Shown here: one piece after another, positions 1 through 64,000 of the stretch
Layout of the letters: each line of letters begins with the position of its first letter
Numbering within the stretch: the stretch's first letter is position 1
DNA from: a virus
IMG/VR virus record: IMGVR_UViG_3300040856_003274
Location: 1-64,000 of that record
Reading direction: 5' to 3' (one strand)
DNA: 64,000 bases
Notes under the pieces: model-generated
Databases searched by the model: none
What the model saw: the letters and a program-made list of their open reading frames with translations, nothing else
Told to the model about the DNA's origin: nothing
Position numbers and translations under genes: made by a program

Positions 1-304
1 CGGTCGCGTCTTTACTTCAAAGCTCTTGAAGAGTTTCGGAGATAATCCCTTCGCGCATAAAAATAAAAGCATGGACTGGTACATAAGGGAACAACTCAGC
101 GAGGTCGATGTTCCTGTCGATAGCAGGCTTGTTAGACTGTCTGACTTAAGTTATCTCCCGTTAGGGCTCAAGACAGAGGAAAACATTTGGGCTTATGACA
201 AGTATAAGATTACGGTGCTAGACCCGCAAGATAGTCTTGTAAACTGGTTGCCTCCTACGTTGAGGGCTAGGTATCTCTCTATTTCTTTTGATCAGAAAAC
301 TTAG
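1..304 (+). CDS. 3' part of a hypothetical protein entering from the left edge
   Basis: ORF track 26..304; converges on the glycosyltransferase gene; the real start is probably outside the window. Confidence 0.45.
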   Translation, partial: GRVFTSKLLKSFGDNPFAHKNKSMDWYIREQLSEVDVPVDSRLVRLSDLSYLPLGLKTEENIWAYDKYKITVLDPQDSLVNWLPPTLRARYLSISFDQKT

Positions 305-2522
305 AGAACATCTTAACATCGTGGTTTAGATTAACCGCGCTTAAAATCTTGTTTAACAAATATTCTCTAGCTTTATTAGTCGTAAACAGGTTCTCCCCCT
401 CTAAGTTTTGGTCGAAGATTAGAGGACGCTCTCTCGCGACATTAACGGCTTTAACTCCTTTAGCGGATAAGATAAAACCGAAAACAAGGTCTACCATACC
501 TGTCTGTGTTGCTTCAGGTATGCGCTCTAGGTCTTTTTTTATCTGAGAGCCCTCTGTCAGCCACATACAGGTAGTCCCTGTTCCTGCGATGGTGTTTTCT
601 TTATCTTCTGTTAGTATTTGGTTGAAATGCGTTAAGTCTCGGTTTTTAAACCCTGTAGTCTCGCTTCCGTTATAGCCATGTAAGCAGAGTGGAGTCTCTT
701 TAGGGTAATCTAACAGCTTAGAGAGCATATGTTCAAAGTAGTTTAAGGGGTAAACGAGATCGTCGTCCGTCCAAAAATTGACCCCCTCAAAGACATTAAG
801 AAACTTCCCATTGTCTTTTAAGTCTCTAACTGGAGTATAGAGATGGACGTTATCCTTGTCTTTGAAGGCTTCTCTAAAAGACTCAGGCACGCTTTGAGGT
901 GTCTCATTAAGGCAGATGTGTAAGTGTGCATTAAGACTCTCGCATACCTCCATTATGCTCTTTGCGGTTTTGAGAGCTTCTTCAAATCTCTTAGGGTATG
1001 TTGCCATGTGTACGTGAATAGGAGGGAGCGCCTTTATGTTTGAGGGCGTATTTCTTTGACAAGAGAAGGGTTGTTGAAACTCTTTTCTGTGTGTGAATAG
1101 GCTTGCATAAGAAGCTCTAAGAGGGCTCATAGTTTCCTTAGTGTTGTCTAGAGACATCTTAACCTTGTTTGTTAAGCTGTCAGGCAACACCTCAGCTTTG
1201 TATAGCGAGCTTTTGTTTACAGCAATCGTTTTACTGCCCAACATATTTTTTTGTCGGTTGAAAAACTCATCGTCAGCGCCGAAGCGTACAGGTTCGTAGT
1301 AGCCTATCTCATCTAAAAGTGCGTCTTTAAATAGGACACCTGCGTATATTCTTCTCGCATCTAACCCTCTATTACTGAGGATTTCGCCATTTTTGCGTAT
1401 GCGATTTCCGAAGGTGTACGAGCACAGTATATTATCATTAGAGCTTAAGTCTTCTAGCTGTACTTCTATTTTCTCACTGAGCACAAAGTCATCTGCATCT
1501 AACATAGTCCAATATTCATATAAGCCTTTGTATTTTTGTAGAACTCTGTTCTTTGATGCGTAAGGGCCTATATTGGTGTGGTTAGACAAGACTTCGATGT
1601 AGGTTACTGCGCTTGACAACGTGTCTCTAATGTTAAGAGCTGTCTCTAAAGTCTTGTCCGTAGAGCAGTCATCGACAAGAAAGATTGTGTGTGGGGGCTT
1701 TGTTTGATTTAGCAGACTTAATACTGCGCGTCTTAGAGTGTTCTCTGCATTGAAGCAGGGTATGATACATCCTATCCGCTTGTCGGCGGTTTTCCCCTTT
1801 TCTTTATATATCCGTACCCTCTCGATGAAGCCTCTACCACAGAGGCTCACAGCCACGGATTTTTTAGAGGTGACTTTTAGAGTCAGTTTGTGCTCACTGT
1901 GCCTCTCTTCTAATATTACGTTATCCCCTGTGCTCAGAGCGATGTGGCCAACCCCTGACCCTAAGACATAGAAGTTATAAGTACCTTTAAGTAGGCTTTT
2001 TTCAAACAGCGTGATTTGAGGGTTTTCGTATTCAATCGGCAAGTTAAAGGGGGTGAGGTATTGCTTCTCGTAGACCGCACTTACCTCTAGTAACTCTCTT
2101 GAGGGGGAGGTTTTCTTGGTACTAAGAGACGCATCCTTAATCGCAACCTTGTGTGCGTTGAGAATGGATTTTTGTATTACGAGCTTCACAAGAACGGGCA
2201 AAGGAGCAGAGTGTTTGAAAGAGACTCGGCACTCATAATCCCCTGATATATCTATAGCGTAGATTAGGGGATCGGAGAAATACTTTAACTTTGCTCCTAT
2301 CGTGTGAGCCTCAAGTGTTATTTCCGCGCTCTTTTCAGTCCTTGACTGTCCGAGGCTTAAAATAACACTAAAAGTGTGGTCACCTGGGTCTAGCATCCCT
2401 CTGTAAATCTCGACTTCTACGGTATGCTTCGTTGTTCTAGGGGGGACTTTTGGTGTTATGTTTTCTTTGTTTTCAAGCCTACAGTTTGTTAAGGCTTTTA
2501 AGCTAGATTTAAGATTAGTCAC
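279..2522 (-). CDS. multidomain glycosyltransferase (GT2 domain plus a second GT-A-like C-terminal domain)
   Basis: IIPCFNAE...VDDCSTD...LDADD GT2 motifs; second region HMATYPKR...DNGKF...TDDDLVYP with DxD. Confidence 0.85.
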   Translation of the reverse strand: MTNLKSSLKALTNCRLENKENITPKVPPRTTKHTVEVEIYRGMLDPGDHTFSVILSLGQSRTEKSAEITLEAHTIGAKLKYFSDPLIYAIDISGDYECRVSFKHSAPLPVLVKLVIQKSILNAHKVAIKDASLSTKKTSPSRELLEVSAVYEKQYLTPFNLPIEYENPQITLFEKSLLKGTYNFYVLGSGVGHIALSTGDNVILEERHSEHKLTLKVTSKKSVAVSLCGRGFIERVRIYKEKGKTADKRIGCIIPCFNAENTLRRAVLSLLNQTKPPHTIFLVDDCSTDKTLETALNIRDTLSSAVTYIEVLSNHTNIGPYASKNRVLQKYKGLYEYWTMLDADDFVLSEKIEVQLEDLSSNDNILCSYTFGNRIRKNGEILSNRGLDARRIYAGVLFKDALLDEIGYYEPVRFGADDEFFNRQKNMLGSKTIAVNKSSLYKAEVLPDSLTNKVKMSLDNTKETMSPLRASYASLFTHRKEFQQPFSCQRNTPSNIKALPPIHVHMATYPKRFEEALKTAKSIMEVCESLNAHLHICLNETPQSVPESFREAFKDKDNVHLYTPVRDLKDNGKFLNVFEGVNFWTDDDLVYPLNYFEHMLSKLLDYPKETPLCLHGYNGSETTGFKNRDLTHFNQILTEDKENTIAGTGTTCMWLTEGSQIKKDLERIPEATQTGMVDLVFGFILSAKGVKAVNVARERPLIFDQNLEGENLFTTNKAREYLLNKILSAVNLNHDVKMFSKFSDQKK

Positions 2523-2565
2523 AAGCGTTTCCTCTCTTGGCGCGTCGTTACATTAAGGACATAAG

Positions 2566-3792
2566 ATGGGTAATAATAAAGTCGGAATAGTAGGGCTCGG
2601 CTACGTCGGTCTACCTCTCGCAACTCTTTTCGCGGAAAGAGGGTTTAACGTAATCGCGTATGATAGAGATGAGTCTAAGGTAAGTCATCTAAAAAACAGC
2701 GTCAGCTACATCGAAGACATCTCCACCGAGAGGCTGTCTAAGATTATCTCTAAGATTAGCCCTACCCTAGATCCCTCAGACCTCTCTGAGGCAGATTGCA
2801 TCTCTGTGTGTGTCCCCACACCTGTAACATGGGATAAGAAACCTGACCTCAAACCAATCATGGGGGCTCTTGAAGACATTAAGGATCATGTCAAAGAGGG
2901 CGCGGTTGTCATTATCGAGTCTACGGTCTACCCTAACTTCACCAAAGAGATGGCTAGACCCCTCTTCCCCCAAGCTCATGTGGTCTTCTCATCCGAGAGA
3001 GTTGATCCTAATAATCAGCAGTTTGAGATTAAAGACATTCCTAAAGTCTTGGGTGCTGACAGCGAAGAAGCCCTAATCAAAGCTAGAGGCTTCTACTCAG
3101 AGCTGTTCACTTTGAAAGAGGTTTCTTCTACTGCGGTCGCGGAGTCAAGCAAGCTCCTTGAGAACACTTATCGAGCTGTAAACATCGCGCTCGCTAATGA
3201 CTTCTCCCGTATGTGTAAAGAGCTAGATATAGATGTGTGGGAGGTCATCGAAGCGGCTAAGACTAAGCCTTTTGGTTTTCAAGCCTTTTACCCGTCTTTA
3301 GGTGTCGGGGGACACTGCATCCCCGTAGACCCTTTCTACTTACTCCACAAGTCAGATAGTCGCCTTGTTCGCGAAGCCATGATGATTAATCAAGACATGG
3401 TTAAGCGGTGTGTCCGTATGGCTCAAAGTAATCTCTTAGGCAAGGTTTTGCTGTTAGGTGTTGCTTACAAGCCTGATATTTCAGATTACAGGGAGTCTCC
3501 GTCAATAAGACTTCTCGAAAGCCTTTTCCTCCTGAAGCACGACGATCTTAATCCTACAGGTGCTGGTTGTGAGGACATTTCTTATTATGATCCTCATGTG
3601 CCTAGCATCTCGGAGCATGGGCTAGAGATGGTGAGCCAGCCCTCTTTAGAAGAAGCTCTAGGCTGGGCTGATACAGTGCTGGTATGTACAGCGCACAAGG
3701 CTTTCGATAAAGATTACATTAAGTCTAACTCGAACGTCTTGTATGACTTCTGTGGGCTCTTTAGGGAAGACTCTAATGTTGAGGGTATTTGA
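2566..3792 (+). CDS. nucleotide-sugar 6-dehydrogenase (UDP-GlcNAc/ManNAc dehydrogenase family, WecC/WbpA-like)
   Basis: GLGYVG Rossmann motif, ESTVYP, KLLENTYRAVNIA, catalytic GGHCIPVDP, AYKPD..DYRESP. Confidence 0.92.
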   Translation: MGNNKVGIVGLGYVGLPLATLFAERGFNVIAYDRDESKVSHLKNSVSYIEDISTERLSKIISKISPTLDPSDLSEADCISVCVPTPVTWDKKPDLKPIMGALEDIKDHVKEGAVVIIESTVYPNFTKEMARPLFPQAHVVFSSERVDPNNQQFEIKDIPKVLGADSEEALIKARGFYSELFTLKEVSSTAVAESSKLLENTYRAVNIALANDFSRMCKELDIDVWEVIEAAKTKPFGFQAFYPSLGVGGHCIPVDPFYLLHKSDSRLVREAMMINQDMVKRCVRMAQSNLLGKVLLLGVAYKPDISDYRESPSIRLLESLFLLKHDDLNPTGAGCEDISYYDPHVPSISEHGLEMVSQPSLEEALGWADTVLVCTAHKAFDKDYIKSNSNVLYDFCGLFREDSNVEGI

Positions 3793-3872: not shown

Positions 3873-4151
3873 ATGACAAGAAATGAACTGTCATCTAACA
3901 TCGCGGGCTCGTTCTCAGGGCTCGACAAGCAAATCGTCAAGGACATCGTGGCGCGTACTTTTGAGGAAATCTCAACCGCGCTCGCTAATGGTGAGAACGT
4001 ACAGCTCACAGGCTTTGGTACATTCGAGCTTCGCCAGCGTTCAGAGCGTCAAGGTGTTAACCCGCGCACTAAAGAGTCTATCACGATCCCTGCGTCTAAG
4101 ACGGTAGGGTTTAAGCCAGGCAAGGCTCTCAAGGAGAGCGTTAACGGCTAA
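3873..4151 (+). CDS. hup: HU/IHF family DNA-binding protein
   Basis: 92 aa, GFGTFE...R.GVNPRTKESITIPA...FKPGKALK signature; AGGAG RBS. Confidence 0.95.
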   Translation: MTRNELSSNIAGSFSGLDKQIVKDIVARTFEEISTALANGENVQLTGFGTFELRQRSERQGVNPRTKESITIPASKTVGFKPGKALKESVNG

Positions 4152-4765: not shown

Positions 4766-4781
4766 GGTGGGACTCCTAATC

Positions 4782-5390
4782 TTAGGGCTCGTATCGGTCT
4801 ATAATGTTAGCGACCATCTCTTCGTTCGCCGTTTTCTTGTTAGACTTGAGGCGAGCCTTCCAATATTTTTTATTGTAAGCGGGCTTGTTCCCACCGTTAA
4901 CGTCTTTGGTTTTCTTTACTTTAGGCATACCTTCGAGGTCAGGGTGTCTACCTGGCTTCGCAGGGTTTTTATGGTAGCAGAGGTGCTGCTGCCTAAGGCT
5001 AGCAGTTTCCTTGTTAAAATACGCAGTGAAGTTGTCGTACTTATCTTTTATATTATCCTCGTTTGCTTTCCATTTTTTCCAATGCTCTTTCAGCGCTTTT
5101 TCGCGAGGGCCGTCTTTCTTTTTCCCTTTAGCCGTTGTATATTTACCGCCTCCCCAACATTTGGGTTTCTTTTTCGGAGTCCAGTTATAACGCTTCTTGT
5201 CTACACTCTTACCATACAGAGGGTTACTCTCTTTACCTTTAGGTTTATCTGTGGTGGACTTATTTGGAATCCTTGCGCCGAGGACACCAACATCTCCATC
5301 TTCACTGAAATCGGCGCTGAGGATGTCCCCCTCTTCCTCTGAAGCGGTGAGGAGCCACCGATCTACAATGTTGCTAGCCATCTTGTTCAT
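4782..5390 (-). CDS. basic hypothetical protein, paralog of 4238-4765; KxAS-signature protein
   Basis: N-terminus MNKMASNIVDRWLLTAS, shared blocks with the downstream gene. Confidence 0.8.
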   Translation of the reverse strand: MNKMASNIVDRWLLTASEEEGDILSADFSEDGDVGVLGARIPNKSTTDKPKGKESNPLYGKSVDKKRYNWTPKKKPKCWGGGKYTTAKGKKKDGPREKALKEHWKKWKANEDNIKDKYDNFTAYFNKETASLRQQHLCYHKNPAKPGRHPDLEGMPKVKKTKDVNGGNKPAYNKKYWKARLKSNKKTANEEMVANIIDRYEP

Positions 5391-5536
5391 AGTAAGACCT
5401 CTACTTTAATCTTTAACTGTTTGTGAGTGTATGTTTATAGTCAACCTACCGAACTTGTATTTTTCTTGCATCGGTCTTACTTTCGGCTATCCTAAGCCAA
5501 ACTTCTAACCACCCTAATGACGGGAGACTTAATCTT

Positions 5537-6766
5537 ATGAGCGAGTTTAAGACATATCGCGCAGTCACCAAAATCCACCTCGGACAGATCGAGAGAGACT
5601 TGTACGAGGGAGACATCGTTGAGTTTAACGGCACTACCCTCAAGATTGGGGGCGAGTCTTTTCAGCTAGGTTCTCTACGAGCCGCTGTGTCTAAGAATTG
5701 GCTCGTAGACGCTAATGACTCTACTTCTAAATATGTGCCTCAATCCGCAAACATCGGTGTTCGTAAAGCTGCCGACGCTGGCTCAGAGAGCACTGAGAAG
5801 ACCGTCATTAAGACCGTTAATGATGAAGAGAAGGTTGTCGGCTCTTCTACCCGTATGAGCGTAGAGAACAAAGACACTAACGAAGACGCGGTTGAGATCG
5901 GTAAGGTTAAGACCGCAACGAAGCAAAAGTCTATCCTCAAGGACGGGGCAAGCGTAGACGCTGAGATTAACCGACTCGACAATACGACTCTTAAGTCAAC
6001 CGTGATTAAGCGTGAGGATCAAGAAATTGCTAAATCTCTCAGCGTAGACGAGGCTCAACAGGCTTTTGCTGAGGCTGAGCCCGTAGCTAATCAAGAGCTT
6101 GAGAGCGTTAAAGGTGAGGTCAATGAGATTAAGGGTCAGCTAGCGAGCATGATGGAGATGATGTCTCAGATGATGACCGCACAGCAGACTTTACTGATCC
6201 CCCCCGCGCCTGTACCCGCGCCCGTGATCGAAGAAGACGCATCGGCTAATGTTAGCGTAGATGACGCTAATGAGTTTCAAGACCTCCTCCCTGAGGCTGA
6301 GGTGCTCGGCTCTAATCTCCTAAAGACAGCTTCTGAAAAGCTTTCTTTCGATGACGGGTTTGACGACGAAGACTTTGATGAGAGCCTTGATCTCGACGGG
6401 AGTCTCAGTGACGACTTTGACTTCTTTGGCGACTTCGACGAGGGCGACTTAGTAGAGGTGGATGAAGAGTTTGAAGAAGAGCCTGCTTTCATAAATGAGG
6501 ACATGGAGCCTATCGACCTTCAAGAAACTCTCGATCCTTTAGAGGAAAACGAGGAAACCTCTGCTCCTGTCCCTAATTCTATATCTGACCGTATGATTAA
6601 GCTCAGTAACGGTGATGTTTGGGATATGACTCGCCATTACAACACTCGCGCTTCCGATTTGATTAACAACTATCTCGACAATCCGATCCTCGATGAGATC
6701 CTTTCTCTTGAGGTTAATGGTGTCCGTAAGCGCGTAGCTAATGCGATGAGTAGCGCCGTCTCTTAA
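5537..6766 (+). CDS. acidic hypothetical protein
   Basis: 409-aa ORF, GGGAG RBS, very D/E-rich C-terminal half. Confidence 0.75.
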   Translation: MSEFKTYRAVTKIHLGQIERDLYEGDIVEFNGTTLKIGGESFQLGSLRAAVSKNWLVDANDSTSKYVPQSANIGVRKAADAGSESTEKTVIKTVNDEEKVVGSSTRMSVENKDTNEDAVEIGKVKTATKQKSILKDGASVDAEINRLDNTTLKSTVIKREDQEIAKSLSVDEAQQAFAEAEPVANQELESVKGEVNEIKGQLASMMEMMSQMMTAQQTLLIPPAPVPAPVIEEDASANVSVDDANEFQDLLPEAEVLGSNLLKTASEKLSFDDGFDDEDFDESLDLDGSLSDDFDFFGDFDEGDLVEVDEEFEEEPAFINEDMEPIDLQETLDPLEENEETSAPVPNSISDRMIKLSNGDVWDMTRHYNTRASDLINNYLDNPILDEILSLEVNGVRKRVANAMSSAVS

Positions 6767-7208: not shown

Positions 7209-9071
7209 ATGTCATATCGCCCTGAGTTATTTGGTGTAAAAACTTATGTTGATGAGGGCTCTCAGAAGGGGATTGACACGCTTAATGCAGGAGGCGCGTC
7301 AGCCCTCCCTAACGGAGAGAGCCCTTACCATGAGTCTTACAGATCATCTCCCTCTTCGGTGCGGAGACGAGAGCAGGCTTTACCTATTACTAACGAGGGG
7401 CATCCTGAGGGTAGGGATCGTAAATCCATCCCCGCTCCAGGTGTTTTCTTGACTCCCTCAGACTCTTCTAATAACGGAGATCGACCTGTTCATCAGAGAG
7501 CGCGTATACAGCCGATGGAAGGCGAGCAGTATGGGCATCCTTACATTGATCAGGGGACACACCTTCATAAGAGGCGCACTATGACAGCTAGCGAGCACGA
7601 TATAATCTTAGCTAATATTATGGCTAGAGTCGCTTCTGATCTTGAGGCAGAGGATTTGGAAGCGGATTGGAAGAGCCCAGTTAAGCCTACGTTCAGAGAG
7701 AGACAGCAACCCCAAGCTGGCCCTGCGAAACTCTACCATCAGAGGTACTACCGCCGTCATCGAAATAAGAAAAAGCGCATGGCTAAGGTTAGGCATCGCC
7801 GTAATAAAAACAAAGGCGTTTACAAGCTAGACCGTAAAAGGCGCAACGAACACCCTGAATGGTACATTCGCAGGAAAGCGATTGGCTACCGTTCTAATGC
7901 AGAGCGTTCGAGAGATGATCGCCAAAAGAAGAAAGCCTCTGAGGAGGTTGTGAACAGGTGGCTCATTAAGACCGCAGACTTCTTGATTGAGAGAGGCCCT
8001 GCACATCGCCGTGAGAGTTTATTAGATTACGATTACCAAGACAGCTTACCTAGTGGGGAGCACACTGACTATGGGCTACCTTCACAGTATGCGCCTGTTG
8101 TTAAAGGTACTGCTCCTTTTAATAGGGAAGAGGATGTGATGCCGACTCAAGGGTTTACTCAGCCGACTGTGCGAGATAACCCGGGCTCTGCGAAGGTGAT
8201 CCCTAGCGGTAAGGGCTTTGTAAATAAGCTCGCGAGCAAGAAGGGCTCTAATCTTTTCCTTGAGTACAAGAAAGAGTTTATGAAGCTCCAAAAGGGCAAG
8301 CAACGCTACCGCTCTGAGGCAGGTAATAAAGTCACTTGGATCACTGCTTATAATCAAAAGAACCCTAAAGCGATTGAAGATTTTAAGAGGTTTGCTCAGG
8401 ATAAGGCTCAGAGGGAGCTGAAAGGGATCAAGGGTGCGGCTACGAGACTGAAGACGAAGGCAGGTCGAGTAGCAAGCGCCATTGTCAGCGCCACTAAGAA
8501 AGTTGCTAGTGTTGCTAAGTCTGAAGTCATGGGGATGGTAAAGACCCCTAAAGTCTTATTCGATATGGCGACAGGTAACTATGATTTTGATGACAAGAAG
8601 CAACTCAAAGAAGACTCTAAGATGATTTGGGGCTCTTTAGTTTATTACGGCGGTATCGCGCTTGCCTTATCTACAGGAGGCTTAGGGTCTACTGCGGTGG
8701 CTCTAGGTAAGAGCGTTGCGACCCATGCGACTTTAGGTGCAGTTTCTTCTGATCTCGACTTCTTTGGTTTTTTGAGTGTAGAAGCCGCCGAGACTGTTGC
8801 AGGCGCTGTAGGCAAAGGGAGTGATCTTCAAGAAGCATTGGGAGGGTTTGTCTCCACGGACTTATTTGACGCAGTGGCTTCAGGAGTCTCTACAGCTCTC
8901 TCCGCAGTTGTTGCTTCTTCAGGCGGTTCGGGTAAAGCTAAACCTGAGAGCCCTGATGCAGTTATGCAAGCGGTCTTGACTAAATATTTAGAGCGTATAG
9001 CAGATACGGCTTCGTCTCTAAGTAAGAAAGATGAGATTAAAGTCTTAAAAGGAGCCTTTAATGAAAGGTAA
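7209..9071 (+). CDS. hypothetical protein with basic segments, several KxAS motifs and a hydrophobic G/A-rich C-terminus (possible virion internal protein)
   Basis: 620-aa ORF; RVAS, KKAS, KTAD, KLAS, KVAS motifs; R/K-rich stretch. Confidence 0.75.
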   Translation: MSYRPELFGVKTYVDEGSQKGIDTLNAGGASALPNGESPYHESYRSSPSSVRRREQALPITNEGHPEGRDRKSIPAPGVFLTPSDSSNNGDRPVHQRARIQPMEGEQYGHPYIDQGTHLHKRRTMTASEHDIILANIMARVASDLEAEDLEADWKSPVKPTFRERQQPQAGPAKLYHQRYYRRHRNKKKRMAKVRHRRNKNKGVYKLDRKRRNEHPEWYIRRKAIGYRSNAERSRDDRQKKKASEEVVNRWLIKTADFLIERGPAHRRESLLDYDYQDSLPSGEHTDYGLPSQYAPVVKGTAPFNREEDVMPTQGFTQPTVRDNPGSAKVIPSGKGFVNKLASKKGSNLFLEYKKEFMKLQKGKQRYRSEAGNKVTWITAYNQKNPKAIEDFKRFAQDKAQRELKGIKGAATRLKTKAGRVASAIVSATKKVASVAKSEVMGMVKTPKVLFDMATGNYDFDDKKQLKEDSKMIWGSLVYYGGIALALSTGGLGSTAVALGKSVATHATLGAVSSDLDFFGFLSVEAAETVAGAVGKGSDLQEALGGFVSTDLFDAVASGVSTALSAVVASSGGSGKAKPESPDAVMQAVLTKYLERIADTASSLSKKDEIKVLKGAFNER

Positions 9072-9477
9072 TGTTAAGAGGTGGTGCTCAGACCTAATCA
9101 AAAAAACTGACCCCTCTGTCGTAGAAAAATCTAACTCTCTAAAGCCCATTCAAAGAGGTGAGACTCTTTTCAAAGTAGGTGAATATGAGATCAATGCTGT
9201 AGAGGGTGAAGACCTCGTACAGCTCAACTGCACCTGTAAGTATTGGCGGTGGCAAGGCCCTGAGTATTGGGCGAAGAAGGGCGGTTATCTGCTCGGAGCG
9301 CCTACGGGATCAGCATCTAAACCTAATGTTAGGGATACTAAAAGTAATCATTTTCTTTGTAAGCACACTGTAGCGGTGCTTAACGACCTAAAGTCTAGGC
9401 AGGAAGCCACTAGGACTAAGCGAGCTTCTATGGTAGAGAGGGTACTCAAATCTTTTGAGAAGAGGGAGATAAAATAA
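9061..9477 (+). CDS. SWIM-type zinc-finger protein
   Basis: CTCKYW ... LCKH (CxC...CxH) pattern. Confidence 0.65.
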   Translation: MKGNVKRWCSDLIKKTDPSVVEKSNSLKPIQRGETLFKVGEYEINAVEGEDLVQLNCTCKYWRWQGPEYWAKKGGYLLGAPTGSASKPNVRDTKSNHFLCKHTVAVLNDLKSRQEATRTKRASMVERVLKSFEKREIK

Positions 9478-9871: not shown

Positions 9872-10648
9872 ATGAGACTGCCTAGAGACATGATGAGTCT
9901 AATCCAAAGGTCTAAGAACCTTGTCCATTTGAGTATCGCTCGGCGCGAGGGTGTCCTCAAGTACCGCCTCAGCGTAGCAGACACGCTTAACAATGCCTTT
10001 GGCGACCCTACCATTAGAGGAGTCGCTACGGACGTTGGCGGTCTAGGCTCTACGGTGCTCTTTGAAGTGGACGCAGGGGGTGAATACAAGAGCCGATCTG
10101 TGCGTCAAAAGAGGACAGGTTACACAGAAGAGAAGCAAGGCACTAGCACCCGTATCTTCTTTGACATAGATGACTTTGTTGACCCAGCGCCAGTGGGCGG
10201 CACGTCTCCTGTCACGGACGACACTAAAGCCTTTTACTTAAGATTAGAGGCTTTTGAGCAAGCCTCTAACAGCTATGTACTCCAAGAGCAGATACTGGTA
10301 GTGCCTCCGTATGATTTCTTCAATACGAAGTCACCTACGTTCACGATGTGGGGGTACGCTCCTATTTACGGGAAGCCTGCGGATTTCGCTAATGTGCCTG
10401 CTCATTTCCCTACGGAGATGATGAATGTGCATTTGCCCAACTACACCCACACGATTAGCCTTGAGCACTTACATGAGAACGGCAACCCTGTTTTCTTTAC
10501 AACCGCTAGAGGTTCGAGTCCTTCTATCCTGATGCCAGGTAAGACTGTGTTTGTATATTCGGCAGGAGTCCCTGAGCTTCATATTGCATCACTCGGAAAC
10601 GCCGCTGAGCCCTTCTCTCTGACTGCAAGTATTCAGTATTTGGGCTAA
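9872..10648 (+). CDS. hypothetical, probably virion structural protein
   Basis: 258-aa ORF with AGGAG RBS in a structural gene run. Confidence 0.65.
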   Translation: MRLPRDMMSLIQRSKNLVHLSIARREGVLKYRLSVADTLNNAFGDPTIRGVATDVGGLGSTVLFEVDAGGEYKSRSVRQKRTGYTEEKQGTSTRIFFDIDDFVDPAPVGGTSPVTDDTKAFYLRLEAFEQASNSYVLQEQILVVPPYDFFNTKSPTFTMWGYAPIYGKPADFANVPAHFPTEMMNVHLPNYTHTISLEHLHENGNPVFFTTARGSSPSILMPGKTVFVYSAGVPELHIASLGNAAEPFSLTASIQYLG

Positions 10649-10718
10649 TCTTTCTTTTCGTTAAAGGCTTTATTAACCTTATCTGTAGGTTATAACCAAA
10701 TTTCAACAGGAGTATCCC

Positions 10719-11315
10719 ATGCAAGGTCTTGCTATTAAGGTTACACATCTCGGACTCACCACTGAGTCACTTCTTCTCGCTGACATCTTCGACGGTACTG
10801 ACGGCCCTGATCACAACCGCCGTAAGCCAGGTGCTGTCTATGTGCCTGCAAACAGCTCAGTTGAGCTCGCTTACACAGATAGCGTAGCGCACTCTTTTGA
10901 GAGTGGCACTATCCGTGGGCTCATCAGCCAAGGTTACGTCTCAGCACGTTTTGTCCTCGGTGATGCTTTCCCTGCTCGCTCACTTAATGTTACGATCCCT
11001 GTCGTTGCAGGCGATGACTCTATCGCGGCAATCGCAGTCCCTGCTGACGGCACTGTTTCTTCAATCACCGCAAGCGTGAACGTTGTCGCTGACGCAGGTA
11101 CGGTTGTTGTTGCTCTCACGGGTGACGGTAACAACCTCCTCGATGCGGCTAACACAGGTGACCTCGCCGCAGGTACTAACACCGCTTCACTCACCGCAAC
11201 CTCTGCTGACCTCGACCTCAGCGCAGGCGACTCTATCGTAGCGACTGTCACCTCTGATAATGGTGGTCTTACTGAGCCTACTCTCGTCACTCTTCAGATT
11301 GAGATTGCAGGCTAA
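10719..11315 (+). CDS. putative virion structural/decoration protein
   Basis: A/G/T/V/D-rich beta-type composition, strong RBS, followed by a terminator. Confidence 0.6.
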   Translation: MQGLAIKVTHLGLTTESLLLADIFDGTDGPDHNRRKPGAVYVPANSSVELAYTDSVAHSFESGTIRGLISQGYVSARFVLGDAFPARSLNVTIPVVAGDDSIAAIAVPADGTVSSITASVNVVADAGTVVVALTGDGNNLLDAANTGDLAAGTNTASLTATSADLDLSAGDSIVATVTSDNGGLTEPTLVTLQIEIAG

Positions 11316-55561: not shown

Positions 55562-55744
55562 ATGAGCTTTAAGATTAAGACAGAGCACTCAACAGGCCAT
55601 CAAATCGTGACATTCGGCGGTAAGAAAGCCTTAATTCGAGACGAATGGGTGCTTATTTGCGCTTTTGACGAGTCTAAGAAAGCATGGATACCGAAAACTT
55701 ATGATATCCAAGCGATCTTAGACTACTTTAACGGCTTAAGTTAG
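55562..55744 (+). CDS. small hypothetical protein
   Basis: AGGAG RBS, 60 aa. Confidence 0.6.
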   Translation: MSFKIKTEHSTGHQIVTFGGKKALIRDEWVLICAFDESKKAWIPKTYDIQAILDYFNGLS

Positions 55745-56305: not shown

Positions 56306-56355
56306 TATCTTAATCTTTCTTAAGTGGGTGTTTGAGGGGGATACAGCTACTAATC

Positions 56356-57123
56356 TTATAGAGACATTACTAATCTAGCGTAATCTTCTGCTTTAGCGAG
56401 CTCTACGGCGGTATTTACTCCGTGGAGCTCGCGAACGGCTTCTCCTCTCAAGATCGGACAAAGTATTTTAATTTTTTTCCTGTACGCGTATTCGATCATA
56501 TCTGTGAGGTAATACTCCCCCTGCGCGTTGTCTGTCCCTACCGTGTCGAGCGCCTCGAAAAGGAGCTTAGCGTCTACACGGTACAAGCCTGTATTGACCT
56601 CTTTGACTTCCAACTCTTCATGTGAGCAGTCTCTCGCTTCGCGGATAGCGCAGAGGTTACCTTTCTGATCTCTCAGTAACCGCCCACACATATAAGAGTA
56701 TTGGTCCCTCTCAGCGCCCACCACTAACATCTTACAGTCCTCAGAAGGTTTCTTAAGATCGAGCATAAGCTGTGCAGACAGGTTAGGTGTATCTCCTGAG
56801 ATGATCCACACATCGCCGTTAAGATTACCTAGCTCCTTACGAGCACTCATTACAGCATCTGCTGTCCCCCTCTGTTCTTCCTGTAGAGCCCATGAGATTA
56901 CATCGCTCTTAATGTGCTTTTGTACGGTGCGGATTACAGCATCTGCTTCATGTCCTACGACGATGATCACTTTCTCCATACCTGCTTTAAGGGCTGAGCG
57001 GGCAACTCTTACGATCATAGGAACACCGAGGACAGTATGTAAGACTTTAGGTTTGCTTGAGCCCATACGAGTACCTTTACCTGCGGCAAGAATAATCGCG
57101 GTTTGGGGTTGGGTTGTTTTCAT
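56356..57123 (-). CDS. glmU: GlcNAc-1-P uridylyltransferase (GlmU N-terminal domain only)
   Basis: LAAGKGTRM.S.KPKVLH, Q.EQRGTADAV, GDTP, EVNTG, NAQGEYYLTD, GVNT; no hexapeptide domain. Confidence 0.88.
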   Translation of the reverse strand: MKTTQPQTAIILAAGKGTRMGSSKPKVLHTVLGVPMIVRVARSALKAGMEKVIIVVGHEADAVIRTVQKHIKSDVISWALQEEQRGTADAVMSARKELGNLNGDVWIISGDTPNLSAQLMLDLKKPSEDCKMLVVGAERDQYSYMCGRLLRDQKGNLCAIREARDCSHEELEVKEVNTGLYRVDAKLLFEALDTVGTDNAQGEYYLTDMIEYAYRKKIKILCPILRGEAVRELHGVNTAVELAKAEDYARLVMSL

Positions 57124-57502: not shown

Positions 57503-57590
57503 TTTAAGATTAAGGGAGTCTCTAGGACTCCCGACACCTTATCCCCCCACCGTCTGATCTGCACTAGGGCATCTCAGAGGGTGAGGGTTT
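57503..57590 (-). repeat. intergenic double-hairpin repeat, copy 1
   Basis: 50 bp identical to 58028-58077; GGGAGTC-N5-GACTCCC hairpin plus long CCCTCACC/GGTGGGG stem. Confidence 0.9.
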
Positions 57591-57626
57591 AAGATTAGGG
57601 TGAGGGTTTCCTCGTAGAGGAAAAGG

Positions 57627-58027: not shown

Positions 58028-58121
58028 TTTAAGATTAAGGGAGTCTCTAGGACTCCCGACACCTTATCCCCCCACCGCCCAACCTGCTTAGAGCAGATTA
58101 GAGGGTGAGGGTTAAGGTGTT
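58028..58121 (-). repeat. intergenic double-hairpin repeat, copy 2
   Basis: as copy 1, with outer ACACCTTA/TAAGGTGT stem. Confidence 0.9.
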
Positions 58122-58760: not shown

Positions 58761-59029
58761 TTACTAACATTACGGATTACTTTTTTCCCCCGACATTACA
58801 GTTTCTCGCCACGGCCCACGCGCATACGCGCACGCGTGTACATGTGTGCGTCATGTACGCGAACGCACGCCAGCGACATGACGCTCAAGCGCGAGCGCGA
58901 GCCCCCCACGACGTATAGAATTCAGACAGGCAATCCGTTTTAGAATTCTATACGCGGTATAGCAGGCGCACCTACGCGTACACGCGTGTGGTTTTGTCGG
59001 GGGAAAAAAGTAATCCGTAATGTTAGTAA
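58761..59029. repeat. 35-bp perfect inverted repeat (58761-58795 / 58995-59029) between divergent genes
   Basis: TTACTAACATTACGGATTACTTTTTTCCCCCGACA and its reverse complement; inner IR CGTATAGAATTC/GAATTCTATACG. Confidence 0.92.
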
Positions 59030-59093: not shown

Positions 59094-60140
<1,047 letters not shown>

Positions 60141-60182: not shown

Positions 60183-60274
60183 GACACCTTAACCCTCACC
60201 TTCTGAGATGTCCTAGACAGATCAGACGGTGAGGGCTTGAGGTGTCGGGAGTCCTAGAGACTCCCTTAATCTTA
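60183..60274 (+). repeat. intergenic double-hairpin repeat, copy 4 (inverted relative to copies 1-3)
   Basis: GACACCTTAACCCTCACC...GGTGAGGG...GGTGTCGGGAGTCCTAGAGACTCCCTTAATCTTA. Confidence 0.9.
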
Positions 60275-60365: not shown

Positions 60366-60481
60366 GGGCTTTCTGTCGGGACTCGTTGCTTTTCTTACGT
60401 TACCGCGCCCCAATAATCTTTTGACTTTAATATTAAGAGTATGACCGCGAGGGGGATAGACTAGCTGAAAAGAGTGCTCTA

Positions 60482-61288: not shown

Positions 61289-61334
61289 GCTCGTATTCTT
61301 TTTATAAGATTAGAGTGATAAAAGGAGTCTTTAG

Positions 61335-61859: not shown

Positions 61860-62843
61860 ATGGATCGCACAGCATATATGATGAAGAGAGCCTCTGCTCA
61901 GAACGAGTTAGCCTTTAAGATAGCCAACGGGCTATTTCTTACAGAGGCTGACAAGGCTTCTAATGAGATTTCCGACGAAGCTAAACAGGGCTTGGCTCTT
62001 ATCCGTAAGGGCGCTGGGTGCAACTCACTCTCTGCTTTCCTTAAGCAGACTGAAGGTAAGCAAGACATTGACGACACTGACCCAATACAGAAGCTCATAA
62101 AGGCACGTCTTCAAGGAGTCACTTCACCTGAAGAGGCTCAAGAGGTCATTGGCACTTTTGCAGTTGCTTATCAGAAGAAAGACATCGTGAAGATGGCTAA
62201 GATCGTGGAGATTGAAGCCAAGGTAATGTCTCTCATCTTGTTGTGGTACGTAAGAGATGATCAGAGCTTGTGGCAGAACAACTCTCCTATGGCAAGAACC
62301 GCCGCTAGTCGAGGCTATAACCGTCGTTATCGGTCACTTAAGAAAGTGCTCACCCTAATCTTAAAGGTTTCAGAGGGTACGCTTAGCTTTGTAGAGAAGA
62401 TTACAGGCGGTGTATCAGACTGGATCGTGCGTTTTCTTCCTGCTACTGCTGGCAAGTTAATCGGTAAGCCTATCAAGTGGGCTCTCTTGACAGGGATCGC
62501 TCTAAAAGCGTGGCCTACGATTACTCAGCTTGTAGCACTTAGTAAGCCTCTGTTCGCTCTAGCGGTGCTCAAGCTGAAGCTCTTAGTAGGGCCTATCGCT
62601 TTCGGCTCTGTAGTGTCTACCGCAGGGTTCGCTTTGGCGGTCTTGGCGGTCGCTTGGTTTGGTTACCAAGTCAAAGAATACCTCGCATGGGCGAAAGGTA
62701 AGCTCCTAGAGGCTATCAAGCTCCCTTTCGCATCGCTCCTGTTGATCCTTAAGACGGTGTTTAAGGGTGGCTACAGCCTTCTTAGATGGGCTTTTAGGGA
62801 CATTAAGGGCTACATTAGAGAGAACCGCGCTCTACTCACCTAA
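61860..62843 (+). CDS. hypothetical protein with KRAS/RTAAS motifs and a hydrophobic C-terminal half
   Basis: 327-aa ORF, multiple TM-like segments. Confidence 0.7.
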   Translation: MDRTAYMMKRASAQNELAFKIANGLFLTEADKASNEISDEAKQGLALIRKGAGCNSLSAFLKQTEGKQDIDDTDPIQKLIKARLQGVTSPEEAQEVIGTFAVAYQKKDIVKMAKIVEIEAKVMSLILLWYVRDDQSLWQNNSPMARTAASRGYNRRYRSLKKVLTLILKVSEGTLSFVEKITGGVSDWIVRFLPATAGKLIGKPIKWALLTGIALKAWPTITQLVALSKPLFALAVLKLKLLVGPIAFGSVVSTAGFALAVLAVAWFGYQVKEYLAWAKGKLLEAIKLPFASLLLILKTVFKGGYSLLRWAFRDIKGYIRENRALLT

Positions 62844-62864
62844 GAAACTTCAGGAGTCGAGGCT

Positions 62865-64000
62865 ATGGACAAGCGATCAGGCTTAATCAGACCCCCTCAA
62901 GGCTTAGTAGACCGTCTCACCGTTATCGGGCGAGGCGCGACGGCTAAATATTGGCTCGACAGGGAAGAGAGGGAGAGGGGTCAGAAGTGCCTCGATCAAG
63001 AAGATGTAGACGGCTTTGAGTGGGTTATCGAGGACATTGACGACCTCTGTCGTAACATAAGAAAAGGCGAGGTCAGCTTAGATGACGTTAAGTGGACTTT
63101 CCAAGCTAGTTTAAACACCACTAAACTTATCTTAGACAAGTGCGCCAGCATAGGGCTGACAATCCCTGCTCTTACTACAGAGCGCGTAATCTTAGCGCAT
63201 AAGAAACAGGAAGCGGCGCTAATCTTTGAAGACGAGCGGAGCTACCGCAATGAGCTTGCTGGGCTTGTGTCGAGGCTTGAGGCTATTCTTACAAAGACCC
63301 TTAAAACGCTAGTAGGTGAGCCTCTCTTCTCTGAGACTATGAGGGAGCAATACTTAGAGGCGAGTGCTCAAGTCGAACACAACGACCAGCAGTCATGGGT
63401 TGTCTTTGACTCTTTCTTAGGTGAGGTTAGACTTAATCTTATCATTAAGCGCACACCAACCTTAGGGAGCTATGTTTACAGGGGCTCTCAACATACGCTC
63501 CTGCTTTACGTGCATCCAGGTCGTGTAGGGTTTGACTTAGGAGAGATTAGAGACGTAGTGAGGCATGAGCTAGTCCACGCTATGCAAAAGCAGATCAGCC
63601 TTAATAACGAAGTCTCTCAAGCAGGGTTGCCACGCTCTAAGAGTGGCGTTTATCGCCAAGGTATGAGGGAGAAAGAGAAGGAGCTCAAAGTCGAGTACGC
63701 AAGAAAAGGGCTCGACCCTGAGGATGTGTCTATCCATGCGCTCGATGACATTGAGTTTTACTCGCGGCTACTTGATGAGGTGGTCAACTTCCAGCGTATT
63801 ATGGGCAGTAATCCGAGTAACGCCGATATACACAACCACATCTCTCGAAGGCTGTTCTTTAAGAGCCTCAAGCGCCAGCCTAAGAAATGGCGTAAAGCGG
63901 TAGGTATCTTCTCTTCTGAGGTGATGTCTCGTAATGTTAGGCGAGCCTCTGAGTTTAAGACTCCGCGCAAATGGAGTAAGGCTCATTGTGAGTCCAAGAG
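62865..64000 (+). CDS. HExxH-motif protein, runs off the window (absent from the ORF track)
   Basis: AGGAG/GAGG RBS, MDKRSGLIRPP start; in-frame VRHELVHAMQ (His codon at 63564), downstream EF motif and RRASE. Confidence 0.7.
   Translation, partial: MDKRSGLIRPPQGLVDRLTVIGRGATAKYWLDREERERGQKCLDQEDVDGFEWVIEDIDDLCRNIRKGEVSLDDVKWTFQASLNTTKLILDKCASIGLTIPALTTERVILAHKKQEAALIFEDERSYRNELAGLVSRLEAILTKTLKTLVGEPLFSETMREQYLEASAQVEHNDQQSWVVFDSFLGEVRLNLIIKRTPTLGSYVYRGSQHTLLLYVHPGRVGFDLGEIRDVVRHELVHAMQKQISLNNEVSQAGLPRSKSGVYRQGMREKEKELKVEYARKGLDPEDVSIHALDDIEFYSRLLDEVVNFQRIMGSNPSNADIHNHISRRLFFKSLKRQPKKWRKAVGIFSSEVMSRNVRRASEFKTPRKWSKAHCESK

What the first reader, a model, noticed from the sequence alone, without database searches (positions are those of the whole stretch)
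205..63441. The 8-mer TAAGATTA/TAATCTTA occurs at least 50 times
Seen: a manual scan found 50 copies on the two strands, for example 205, 2510, 2739, 2751, 4777, 5530, 7603, 11313, 11359, 13730, 20200, 22913, 22931, 24598, 24613, 26076, 26118, 32042, 37993, 42032, 47523, 47574, 51719, 55570, 57505, 58030, 60267, 61305 and 63434. A simple base-composition estimate (assuming about 54% AT) predicts roughly 3. It is a quasi-palindrome (TAA-GA-TTA). It occurs in coding DNA in both orientations, often at gene borders, and at the end of the cassette hairpin repeat. Inference: a HIP1/Chi-like genome signature, such as a binding site for a packaging, nucleoid or recombination protein, or the footprint of modification-linked mutation or repair.
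Basis: partly seen in the sequence, partly recalled or inferred. Interest (0 to 1): 0.7.

Follow-up and report, generated by a model that had tools for sequence, protein, structure and literature searches.

The report
Highly iterated octamer in huge phage
An uncultured huge phage carries one 8-base near-palindromic DNA word about ten times more often than chance, codon choice or restriction-site avoidance can explain, and its relatives keep the copies in place, so it is a real genome-wide recognition signal whose reader is still unknown.

Summary
Confirmed. TAAGATTA/TAATCTTA occurs 51 times in the window (shuffles give 2.9) and 114 times in the 168-kb contig, a fragment of a huge myophage. It is the commonest 8-mer there.

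- **Nulls:** the excess survives synonymous-codon shuffling (95 against 10.9 in coding DNA), shuffling that also keeps 102 avoided words out (15-17), and Markov orders 0-4.
- **Anatomy:** it heads a degenerate palindrome, TAAB|VTTA (256 sites, one per 657 bp). Only inverted TAA/TTA arms two bases apart are enriched.
- **Layout:** no strand polarity (58/56), no link to gene direction (47/48), random spacing, no flank information.
- **Relatives:** phages down to about 70% protein identity have the same top word. Against a relative about 5% diverged per base, 89% of sites stay in the family (background 8-mers 64%). The arms are constrained and the centre drifts.
- **Other lineages:** four more distant huge-phage lineages each have their own hyperabundant word. 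All have lost palindromes to an extreme degree.

Best reading: a selected recognition site for a dyad-symmetric protein that binds or modifies duplex DNA, comparable to cyanobacterial HIP1. Promoter and compositional readings are rejected; classical Chi is disfavoured. The reader protein and the function are not shown. This scan earlier noted a similar selected tag in an unrelated flavobacterial phage (e1-3265446).

The parts
205..212 (+). main word, coding
2510..2517 (+). main word, at divergent gene starts
2739..2746 (+). main word, coding; GG-centre variant in relative L001
2751..2758 (+). main word, coding
4777..4784 (-). main word, its TAA lies at a gene border
5530..5537 (-). main word, overlaps start codon at 5537
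7603..7610 (-). main word, coding
10239..10246 (+). main word, coding
11313..11320 (-). main word, gene border
11359..11366 (+). main word, intergenic, next to a hairpin
11970..11977 (+). main word, coding; intact in L002, L004, L006
13730..13737 (+). main word, coding
13888..13895 (-). main word, coding
14051..14058 (-). main word, coding; intact in L002, L004, L006
20200..20207 (+). main word, last A is the A of the start codon at 20207
22697..22704 (-). main word, coding; GG-centre variant in L002
22913..22920 (+). main word, coding; intact in L004, L006
22931..22938 (+). main word, coding; intact in L004, L006
24009..24016 (+). main word, intergenic
24598..24605 (+). main word, stop codon plus start codon at 24605
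24613..24620 (+). main word, coding
25048..25055 (+). main word, coding; intact in L004, L006
25523..25530 (-). main word, coding; intact in L004, L006
26076..26083 (-). main word, coding
26118..26125 (-). main word, coding
26853..26860 (+). main word, coding
28088..28095 (+). main word, coding
32042..32049 (+). main word, coding (sheath gene)
32822..32829 (-). main word, coding (sheath gene)
34412..34419 (-). main word, coding (sheath gene)
37993..38000 (-). main word, coding
41184..41191 (-). main word, coding
42032..42039 (-). main word, coding
43654..43661 (-). main word, intergenic
44566..44573 (+). main word, coding
47523..47530 (-). main word, coding (topoisomerase IB gene)
47574..47581 (-). 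main word, coding (topoisomerase IB gene)
49332..49339 (+). main word, coding
50966..50973 (-). main word, coding
51719..51726 (+). main word, coding
55570..55577 (+). main word, coding
56351..56358 (-). main word, gene border
56820..56827 (+). main word, coding
57505..57512 (+). main word, intergenic, abuts the shared hairpin repeat
57590..57597 (+). main word, intergenic
58030..58037 (+). main word, intergenic, abuts the shared hairpin repeat
60267..60274 (-). main word, intergenic, abuts the shared hairpin repeat
61305..61312 (+). main word, intergenic
62356..62363 (-). main word, coding
63187..63194 (-). main word, coding
63434..63441 (-). main word, coding
1628..1635 (+). family copy, TG centre
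1911..1918 (.). family copy, TA centre (perfect palindrome)
4802..4809 (+). family copy, TG centre
5902..5909 (+). family copy, GG centre
6247..6254 (+). family copy, TG centre
7613..7620 (.). family copy, TA centre
7784..7791 (+). family copy, GG centre
9069..9076 (+). family copy, TG centre
9324..9331 (+). family copy, TG centre
10674..10681 (-). family copy, GG centre, intergenic
10736..10743 (+). family copy, GG centre
10985..10992 (+). family copy, TG centre
13274..13281 (+). family copy, TG centre
14258..14265 (-). family copy, TG centre
14629..14636 (-). family copy, GG centre
19663..19670 (+). family copy, GG centre
20428..20435 (+). family copy, TG centre
23153..23160 (.). family copy, TA centre
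23988..23995 (.). family copy, TA centre, intergenic
27834..27841 (+). family copy, GG centre
29273..29280 (-). family copy, GG centre, intergenic
29789..29796 (-). family copy, GG centre
30197..30204 (+). family copy, GG centre
30209..30216 (+). family copy, GG centre
30941..30948 (+). family copy, TG centre
35063..35070 (-). family copy, TG centre
35752..35759 (+). family copy, TG centre
37473..37480 (-). family copy, TG centre, gene border
40431..40438 (+). family copy, TG centre
40926..40933 (.). family copy, TA centre
41909..41916 (.). family copy, TA centre
42961..42968 (+). family copy, GG centre
43159..43166 (.). family copy, TA centre
49103..49110 (-). family copy, GG centre
52477..52484 (-). 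family copy, TG centre
58765..58772 (-). family copy, TG centre
59018..59025 (+). family copy, TG centre, intergenic
59342..59349 (+). family copy, GG centre, first of a run of four inside a repetitive gene
59360..59367 (+). family copy, GG centre, run of four
59372..59379 (+). family copy, GG centre, run of four
59390..59397 (+). family copy, GG centre, run of four
60428..60435 (.). family copy, TA centre, intergenic
63932..63939 (+). family copy, TG centre
3873..4151 (+). HU/IHF-family DNA-binding protein gene; a candidate reader only, with no evidence linking it to the word
   Evidence: PF00216, E 5.9e-30; syntenic in relatives
21213..22199 (+). N6/N4 DNA methyltransferase gene; a candidate reader only. 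It is absent at this place in L004 and L006, which keep the word

Best explanation
TAAGATTA is the commonest form of a highly iterated, degenerate 8-bp palindrome, TAAB|VTTA. It is two inverted 4-bp half-sites, TAA followed by any base except A. The CG and GC centres are missing because they would create the strongly avoided AACGTT and AAGCTT. I read it as the recognition site of a dyad-symmetric, sequence-specific protein that acts on duplex phage DNA whatever the gene or replication direction. The protein could be a DNA-binding protein or an enzyme with restriction-modification-type recognition, such as a methyltransferase or a nickase. Selection holds the site at high density, about 1 per 650 bp, mostly through synonymous codon choice, so the whole phage chromosome carries a lineage-specific mark. 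Shown: the excess, its independence from codon usage and from site avoidance, the strict arm geometry, the lack of polarity, and the retention of sites in relatives with constrained arms and a freely drifting centre. Inferred: that a protein reads the site, that the protein is phage-encoded, and what the mark is for (self-marking, chromosome organisation or protection).
For: - **Excess:** 51 against 2.9 in the window. 114 copies in the contig, where it is the top 8-mer and first of 280 words with the same composition.
- **Nulls:** 95 against 10.9 +/- 3.1 under synonymous shuffling, and 15-17 under shuffling that also forbids 102 avoided words.
- **Occupancy:** 39 of 72 amino-acid contexts compatible with x-Lys-Ile-(codon starting with A) actually carry the word.
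- **Grammar:** the enriched centres are GA/TC 114, TG/CA 67, GG/CC 42 and TA 33. The other centres give 1-13 copies.
- **End bases:** the outer T and A depend on each other. Of 252 AAGATT cores, 114 have T_A flanks; no other flank pair exceeds 26.
- **Geometry:** only TAA-N2-TTA is enriched, 285 against 74. Spacings of 0, 1 and 3-7 bases and the other arm arrangements are at or below expectation.
- **Flanks:** there is almost no information outside the 8 bp.
- **Orientation:** 58 + and 56 -; 47 co-oriented with genes and 48 opposed; spacing fits a Poisson process.
- **Relatives:** it is the top 8-mer in relatives down to about 70% identity of a 431-aa putative head protein and in G001 (50 copies in 72 kb, reversed word 0).
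- **Site retention, deeper relatives:** 10 of 16 aligned sites are intact in L004 and 6 of 14 in L006, against 13% and 10% of background 8-mers, while the flanks are at background.
- **Site retention, G001:** 104 of 117 family sites stay in the family, against 64% of background 8-mers. 13 of the 26 changed sites are centre-only switches within the family, and no centre-only change leaves it.
- **Prior odds:** the chance that a random 8-mer has 3-bp arms that are reverse complements of each other is 1 in 64, which favours a symmetric duplex reader over one that reads single-stranded DNA.
Against: - No reader protein has been identified, and neither binding nor modification has been measured.
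- The methyltransferase in the window is missing from two relatives that keep the word.
- The HU-like gene was not found in the other word-rich fragments, though those fragments are only 17-46% complete.
- The hyperabundant words of four other lineages are asymmetric. If one mechanism explains all lineages, dyad symmetry is not essential to it.
- Retention of sites cannot separate selection from a repair or conversion bias.
- No established biology explains why a phage would need hundreds of such sites.
Confidence: 0.4

Rival explanations
1. The word is a Chi-like signal that tames a nuclease. A host RecBCD/AddAB-type helicase-nuclease, or a phage-encoded one, recognises it and switches from degrading DNA to recombinational repair. 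Dense copies in both orientations would then rescue phage DNA after a two-ended break made by restriction or another defence nuclease.
For: - It is an 8-base word, sharply defined, with no flank information.
- Its density is in the range of Chi-rich phages, about 1 per 1.9 kb in phage LLS (PMC12315714).
- Related huge-phage lineages of different GC content each have a different word, as expected if the host sets the word.
- The genome is under exceptional pressure from DNA-cutting defences, with 27 of 64 hexamer palindromes absent. Two-ended breaks would call for both orientations.
Against: - Documented Chi-rich phages are strongly one-oriented: 20 of 23 sites in LLS and 32 of 32 in MD8. Here the split is 58/56, with 21/19 to the left of the putative origin near 53.4 kb and 37/37 to the right.
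- The word is dyad-symmetric with strict arm spacing, which a reader of single-stranded DNA does not need.
- Known Chi sequences are G-rich; this word has one G. That comparison rests on my own knowledge.
- No RecB/AddA-like gene was seen among about 40 large ORFs scanned, although the contig covers only about 40% of the genome.
Confidence: 0.2
2. The word is the product of a molecular drive rather than of selection for a function. A sequence-specific repair or gene-conversion bias would convert near-matches into the word, or shield the word from mutation, so that it piles up passively. A methyltransferase-linked very-short-patch type of repair is one example. This has been suggested for HIP1, and uptake bias drives uptake sequences in a comparable way.
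For: - The recognition grammar looks like that of restriction-modification enzymes: a compact, degenerate palindrome.
- N6/N4 methyltransferase genes or gene pieces are present in this phage and in all five other word-rich fragments examined.
- A small GIY-YIG nuclease gene lies beside the window's methyltransferase gene.
- Placement is random and occupancy of freely available synonymous contexts is very high.
Against: - One-mismatch neighbours of the word are not depleted. They occur 5-26 times against roughly 5-10 expected, which looks like decay from the word rather than conversion into it.
- Known repair biases of this kind give modest skews, not a tenfold excess. That comparison rests on my own knowledge.
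- The window's methyltransferase is dispensable for keeping the word, since L004 and L006 lack it.
Confidence: 0.15
3. The word is a compositional by-product. Codon and codon-pair preferences, together with the removal of more than a hundred restriction-type words, would funnel coding sequence into a few safe words, of which this is the commonest.
For: - The genome avoids at least 102 words of 4-6 bases.
- Many 7-mers are about threefold above the synonymous-shuffle expectation.
- Forbidding the avoided words raises the expected count from 10.9 to about 16.
Against: - The observed 95 copies are still about six times the constrained expectation.
- Words that differ only in an end base are neither avoided nor favoured, at 14-26 copies against 114.
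- The excess holds in both orientations, in both usable reading frames including one that needs rare codons, and in non-coding DNA.
- The specificity for one arm spacing and the retention of sites in relatives are not expected from composition alone.
Confidence: 0.05
4. The word is a transcription or translation signal, such as a short late-promoter element like that of T4, a terminator tail or a translation-coupling box.
For: - It is twice as dense in non-coding DNA and at gene borders as elsewhere.
- Several copies link a stop codon to the next start codon, and three copies abut a terminator-like hairpin.
Against: - Orientation relative to genes is 47 against 48, and the intergenic copies also point both ways.
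- 83% of copies lie inside genes.
- A different word, GTATAGAATT, which often occurs in divergent pairs in non-coding hubs, looks like the phage's promoter element.
Confidence: 0.03

Closest known systems
HIP1 (GCGATCGC), the highly iterated palindrome of cyanobacterial chromosomes
   Same: Both are palindromic octamers present about once per 0.3-1.2 kb. Both lie in coding and non-coding DNA whatever the gene orientation, both are conserved above background, and the function of both is unresolved. HIP1 is recognised by DNA methyltransferases (abstract of bioRxiv 10.64898/2026.06.24.733823), and this phage and its word-rich relatives carry N6/N4 methyltransferase genes.
   Different: This word sits in a virus, not a cellular chromosome. 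It is AT-rich, and its central two bases are degenerate. The perfect-palindrome forms with CG or GC centres are almost absent. No cognate methyltransferase has been shown. Spacing is random here, whereas the same abstract describes HIP1 as quasi-periodic.
Chi sites accumulated in lambdoid phages that lack a recombination module (LLS, MD8; PMC12315714; Bobay et al. 2013, PMC3784561)
   Same: Both are octamers that a phage has accumulated far above chance, at about one per 1-2 kb, in coding DNA.
   Different: Chi in those phages is asymmetric, over 85% in one orientation and clustered towards one genome end. It is also the known Chi of the host. Here the word is dyad-symmetric, unpolarised and evenly spread, and the host is unknown.
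DNA uptake sequences (USS of Pasteurellaceae, DUS of Neisseriaceae)
   Same: Both have about one copy per kb in both orientations and inside genes in preferred reading frames, and some copies lie beside terminator hairpins. Both belong to one lineage. This comparison rests on my own knowledge.
   Different: Uptake sequences are 9-12 bp with flanking preferences. They belong to naturally competent bacteria and are driven by biased DNA uptake. No comparable uptake step is known for a phage genome.
Stoperators of Cluster A mycobacteriophages (repressor sites scattered through the genome)
   Same: They are a precedent for a phage-encoded DNA-binding protein with dozens of sites spread over the whole phage genome, about 1 per 2 kb. 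This rests on my own knowledge.
   Different: Stoperators are 13-bp asymmetric sites, lie mostly in short intergenic gaps and are co-oriented with transcription. This word is 8 bp, symmetric, mostly inside genes and neutral in orientation.
Selected 9-bp tag in a marine flavobacterial phage
   Same: That phage also has a hyperabundant short word, strand-symmetric and independent of reading frame, shared only with close relatives and with an unknown reader.
   Different: The word and the phage lineage are different. I did not re-examine that genome.

Membership tests
Chi (recombination hotspot / nuclease attenuator) | A short word in statistical excess over composition and coding expectations | tested here: met
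   114 observed against 6.7-28.7 expected. 95 against 10.9 in coding DNA.
Chi (recombination hotspot / nuclease attenuator) | Orientation bias relative to the DNA end or the direction of replication | tested here: not met
   58 + and 56 -. The range of the cumulative strand count is 14, against 12.3 +/- 3.0 in the null. The split is 21/19 left and 37/37 right of the putative origin near 53.4 kb. Chi-rich phages show 20 of 23 and 32 of 32.
Chi (recombination hotspot / nuclease attenuator) | Recognised by the host's RecBCD/AddAB and in skewed excess in the host chromosome | not testable with these tools
   The host is unknown. Homologues of the phage's metabolic genes gave no host clue.
HIP1-type highly iterated palindrome | A palindromic octamer | tested here: met
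   The family is the degenerate palindrome TAAB|VTTA. Only inverted arms two bases apart are enriched.
HIP1-type highly iterated palindrome | Hyperabundance of about 1 per kb or more across coding and non-coding DNA | tested here: met
   256 family sites in 168 kb, one per 657 bp.
HIP1-type highly iterated palindrome | Sites retained between related genomes above background | tested here: met
   89% of sites stay in the family against 64% of background 8-mers in G001. 16 of 30 aligned sites are intact against 10-13% of background 8-mers in L004 and L006.
HIP1-type highly iterated palindrome | A cognate DNA methyltransferase recognises the word or its core | tested here: inconclusive
   PF01555 methyltransferase genes are present but their specificity is unknown. 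One of them is absent from relatives that keep the word.
DNA uptake sequence (USS/DUS) | Belongs to a naturally competent host and is bound by its uptake receptor | not testable with these tools
   The host is unknown, and the element lies in a phage genome.
Promoter or other transcription signal (for example the T4 late-promoter type) | Co-oriented with the downstream gene and concentrated upstream of genes | tested here: not met
   47 copies run with the gene and 48 against it, 83% lie inside genes, and the intergenic copies point both ways.
Dispersed repeat or mobile-element fragment | Copies share sequence beyond the core | tested here: not met
   Flank information is 0.21 bit or less per position. 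Only 3 of the 51 window copies share a hairpin repeat.
By-product of restriction-site avoidance | The excess is reproduced once the avoided words are forbidden | tested here: not met
   Constrained shuffles give 15-17 copies against 95 observed.

The most novel reading that the evidence does not exclude
Huge phages of this group mark their chromosomes with lineage-specific 'self' words: TAAB|VTTA here, and WWYGGATA, TGAYCYC, AGAAATA and CGCGCTC in four other lineages. A dedicated phage-encoded reader with exchangeable specificity would use these words to tell phage DNA from host DNA. It might spare phage DNA from a phage or host nuclease, or direct modification, packaging or organisation. This positive tagging would be the counterpart of the extreme loss of restriction sites in the same genomes. 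It would be a new kind of self/non-self system built on word enrichment rather than on modification or avoidance.
Probability: 0.2. Interest if true: 0.9.

Novelty: new variant of a known kind. Interest (0 to 1): 0.72.

Why it matters
Only a few kinds of short word are known to be held at very high copy number across a genome: Chi, uptake sequences, HIP1 and the KOPS orienting sequences. Each of the first two revealed a DNA-handling machine. HIP1 is still unexplained after three decades.

Here a comparable word sits in a virus. The evidence for selection is unusually clean: about half of all freely available synonymous contexts are occupied, the arms are constrained and the centre drifts. The word appears alongside the most extreme loss of palindromes I have seen in a phage genome. 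Several related huge-phage lineages each have a different word.

If a reader protein exists, comparing word and protein across these lineages is a direct route to finding it. If the words mark 'self', they would also give a new sequence signature for grouping uncultured phages, and possibly for assigning hosts.

Tried and rejected
- **Compositional explanations.** Markov orders 0-6, codon permutation, synonymous shuffling and shuffling with 102 avoided words forbidden do not account for the excess.
- **Promoter or terminator role.** Rejected on orientation. GTATAGAATT is the better promoter candidate.
- **Repeat-family origin.** Rejected because the flanks carry no information.
- **Strand polarity, spacing and clustering.** There is no polarity, the spacing fits a Poisson process, and the only clusters are a few tandem runs.
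- **Decay from an ancestral perfect palindrome with a CG or GC centre.** Rejected because the single-step products with AC/GT and AG/CT centres are not enriched.
- **Selection for off-frame stop codons.** Rejected because TAA..TAA and TTA..TTA arrangements are not enriched.
- **Host identification.** Closest bacterial homologues of the UDP-glucose dehydrogenase and PEP carboxykinase genes gave no clear host and no locus rich in the word.
- **Search of viral contigs for close pairs of the word.** The densest hits were local tandem clusters in unrelated phages with no tblastx match to this contig, so it says nothing on whether unrelated phages share the word.
- **Close homologues of the 431-aa putative head protein among viral contigs.** None were found by single-protein search, and the exhaustive protein search gave only distant partial hits.
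- **Literature.** No paper treats this word as a biological motif.
- **Not attempted.** I did not test whether the exchangeable DNA-reading piece of the split methyltransferase changes with the word, because divergence between these lineages is too general for that to be specific evidence.

Full report
**What the window is.** The window is the first 64 kb of a single 168,266-bp contig with 47.7% GC. It is an IMG/VR virus record that CheckV rates about 40% complete. The contig encodes:
- a 1,894-aa tail-sheath-like protein, a family-2 glycosyltransferase, a phosphoglucomutase and a type IB topoisomerase;
- baseplate proteins and a DnaB-like helicase;
- PEP carboxykinase and a GlmS-like protein;
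- an SNF2 helicase;
- an HU-family protein, an N6/N4 methyltransferase, a GIY-YIG nuclease and an actin-like protein.

This is a fragment of an uncultured huge myophage. Most of its large proteins match no phage family.

TAAGATTA and its complement occur 51 times in the window, against 2.94 +/- 1.53 in dinucleotide-preserving shuffles. In the whole contig there are 114 copies, making it the most frequent 8-mer. It ranks first of the 280 words with the same base composition, whose median is 4. The reversed word occurs once.

**The excess is not compositional.** Expected counts under Markov orders 0 to 4 are 6.7 to 28.7. Orders 5 and 6 approach the observed count only because they are fitted to the word's own sub-words.
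- In coding DNA, 95 copies compare with 10.9 +/- 3.1 after shuffling synonymous codons within genes, and with 6.9 after permuting codons.
- The genome avoids many short words, so I repeated the synonymous shuffle while forbidding any increase in 102 strongly avoided 4-6-mers. The expectation rose only to 15-17.
- Of 72 places where the protein sequence allows the word in its commonest frame (codon ending in T, Lys, Ile, codon starting with A), 39 carry it.
- The word is also enriched in the frame that needs rare codons and on the antisense strand.

**Anatomy of the motif.**
- The word belongs to a family. Among TAANNTTA words, the centres GA/TC (114), TG/CA (67), GG/CC (42) and TA (33 palindromic sites) are enriched. 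AC/GT (8) and AG/CT (13) are at expectation. AA/TT, AT, CG and GC give 1-3 copies, and each of those contains a strongly avoided word: AATT, AACGTT or AAGCTT.
- This is the degenerate palindrome TAAB|VTTA, two inverted half-sites of TAA plus a base other than A.
- The outer T and A depend on each other. Of 252 AAGATT cores, 114 have T_A flanks and no other flank pair exceeds 26.
- Geometry is strict. TAA-N2-TTA occurs 285 times against 74 expected, while spacings of 0, 1 and 3-7 bases and the arrangements TTA..TAA, TAA..TAA and TTA..TTA are at or below expectation.
- Flanking positions carry 0.21 bit or less. The copies are therefore not pieces of a longer repeat, apart from three that abut a shared hairpin.

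The family has 256 sites in the contig, one per 657 bp, of which 94 lie in the window.

**Distribution.**
- Strands are used equally, 58 + and 56 -.
- Orientation relative to the gene is 47 with and 48 against.
- Spacing fits a Poisson process, with a gap coefficient of variation of 1.00.
- Density is about twofold higher in non-coding and border positions. There the TAA often serves as a stop codon, but those copies also point both ways.

This rules out a transcription or RNA-level signal. A different word, GTATAGAATT, often in divergent pairs in non-coding hubs, looks like the promoter element.

**Relatives.**
- A 431-aa putative head protein has homologues at 96-70% identity on other metagenomic contigs. 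In all four loci fetched, TAAGATTA is again the most frequent 8-mer by raw count.
- A 72-kb relative, G001, has 50 copies and none of the reversed word.
- At about 75% and 73% nucleotide identity, 10 of 16 and 6 of 14 aligned sites are intact, against 12.8% and 10% of all aligned 8-mers. The 20-bp flanks are at background identity.
- Against G001, where 64% of background 8-mers are identical, 91 of 117 family sites are identical, 13 have switched to another family member by a change in the centre alone, and 13 are lost. No centre-only change leaves the family.
- With a per-base identity of about 0.946, about 33 arm losses and about 9 centre-only changes would be expected if nothing constrained the sites. 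The arms are therefore constrained to about 40% of that rate, while the centre drifts freely among the allowed states. These expectations are approximate because substitutions cluster.
- Sites also turn over, with gains and losses in both directions.

**A wider pattern.**
- The SNF2 helicase is conserved at 40-65% identity in hundreds of huge-phage contigs.
- In 21-kb loci from 80 of them, only the close relative shares TAAGATTA.
- Several lineages have their own dispersed word that exceeds every synonymous shuffle.
- Four such records fetched in full show ATTGGATA (95 in 108 kb; family WWYGGATA), TGACCCCA (108 in 205 kb; TGAYCYC), AAGAAATA (127 in 84 kb) and ACGCGCTC (87 in 143 kb). All are dispersed and unpolarised. 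Three lie about equally in both orientations relative to genes, while AAGAAATA leans towards the gene's direction (71 against 44).
- All these genomes have lost palindromes to an extreme degree. This contig lacks 27 of 64 hexamer palindromes, against 31 of 2,016 non-palindromic hexamer pairs, and has 5 CCGG. One relative has no CTAG, AGCT or AATT in 205 kb. Another has no GCGC or ACGT in 108 kb.
- This scan had also noted a selected tag in an unrelated flavobacterial phage. I did not re-examine it.

**Interpretation.** Four things point to a selected recognition site read on duplex DNA by a dyad-symmetric protein: the compact, sharply bounded palindromic grammar, the strict spacing, the indifference to orientation and the constraint on the arms. 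Restriction-modification enzymes have this grammar, but other small DNA-binding dimers are possible. I put this at about 0.4. The candidates below are only candidates:
- the N6/N4 methyltransferases, which are present in every word-rich fragment; the one in the window is absent from two relatives that keep the word;
- the HU-family protein.

The rivals, in order:
- **A Chi-like role, about 0.2.** Enrichment of a host octamer is the one documented reason for a phage to accumulate a word. However, documented Chi-rich phages are over 85% one-oriented, and this word is symmetric and unpolarised. Protection after two-ended breaks could still explain both orientations.
- **A repair or conversion drive, about 0.15.** This cannot be separated from selection with these data. 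One-mismatch neighbours are not depleted.
- **Composition or avoidance by-product, about 0.05**, and **transcription signals, about 0.03**. Both are largely excluded.

**Limits.** The host is unknown, so host enrichment could not be tested. My gene calls are simple longest-ORF calls. Nothing here measures binding, modification or function.

Noticed in passing
whole window and contig; relatives G002, G003: Loss of palindromes is extreme. 27 of 64 hexamer palindromes are absent from 168 kb, against 31 of 2,016 non-palindromic hexamer pairs. CCGG occurs 5 times (544 expected), and AATT, GGCC, GCWGC, GAWTC and GGWCC are strongly depleted. Relative G003 has no CTAG, AGCT or AATT in 205 kb, and G002 has no GCGC or ACGT in 108 kb. 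Each lineage has lost a different set.
   Followed up: partly
loci L093-L125 (records G002-G005): Four other huge-phage lineages that share the SNF2 helicase each have their own hyperabundant, dispersed, unpolarised word: WWYGGATA, TGAYCYC, AGAAATA and CGCGCTC. Densities are about 1 per 270-720 bp. The G002 word TTATCCAA(A/T) resembles a DnaA box.
   Followed up: partly
window 58914-58952; contig 75170-75208 and 94543-94581; 13 single copies elsewhere in the contig: GTATAGAATT is a dispersed word that keeps the otherwise avoided AATT (its 8-base core AATTCTAT occurs 21 times against 0.5 expected). It often occurs as divergent pairs about 30 bp apart in non-coding hubs, so it is probably the phage's promoter element.
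   Followed up: partly
contig-wide: Dipeptide use looks shaped by word avoidance. Lys-Leu occurs 215 times against 298 expected and Lys-Phe 69 against 132, while Lys-Val and Asn-Ile are in excess. This fits avoidance of AAGCTT and AATT reaching the protein level.
   Followed up: no
contig-wide: In a genome that has lost most palindromes, a few hexamer palindromes are enriched: CTTAAG 112 copies (2.5 times expectation) and GAGCTC 78 (2.1 times). TAAGAAA is a second, weaker word that is neutral in orientation (141 against 50 expected under a third-order Markov model).
   Followed up: no
window 59342-59397: Four GG-centre family copies are spaced 18, 12 and 18 bp apart in one frame of the gene at 59079-60140. 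Its product is a low-complexity acidic repeat protein. The Pfam PARP-like hit is below the family's cut-off.
   Followed up: no
window 25306-26343: This gene encodes an actin-like protein of the volactin family (PF25216, E 1.8e-76) and is conserved in relatives L004 and L006. It may be a phage cytoskeletal element.
   Followed up: no
contig 90329-91966, 96526-98274, 69977-71314; window 2566-3792, 35024-36406, 279-2522: The phage carries an unusual set of metabolic genes: ATP-dependent PEP carboxykinase, a GlmS-like amidotransferase, a PIN-PhoH protein, UDP-glucose 6-dehydrogenase, phosphoglucomutase and a large family-2 glycosyltransferase.
   Followed up: no
window 21213-22536: The N6/N4 methyltransferase has its Pfam motifs in permuted order and overlaps a convergent 116-aa GIY-YIG nuclease gene. 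L004 and L006 keep the nuclease gene but lack the methyltransferase gene.
   Followed up: partly
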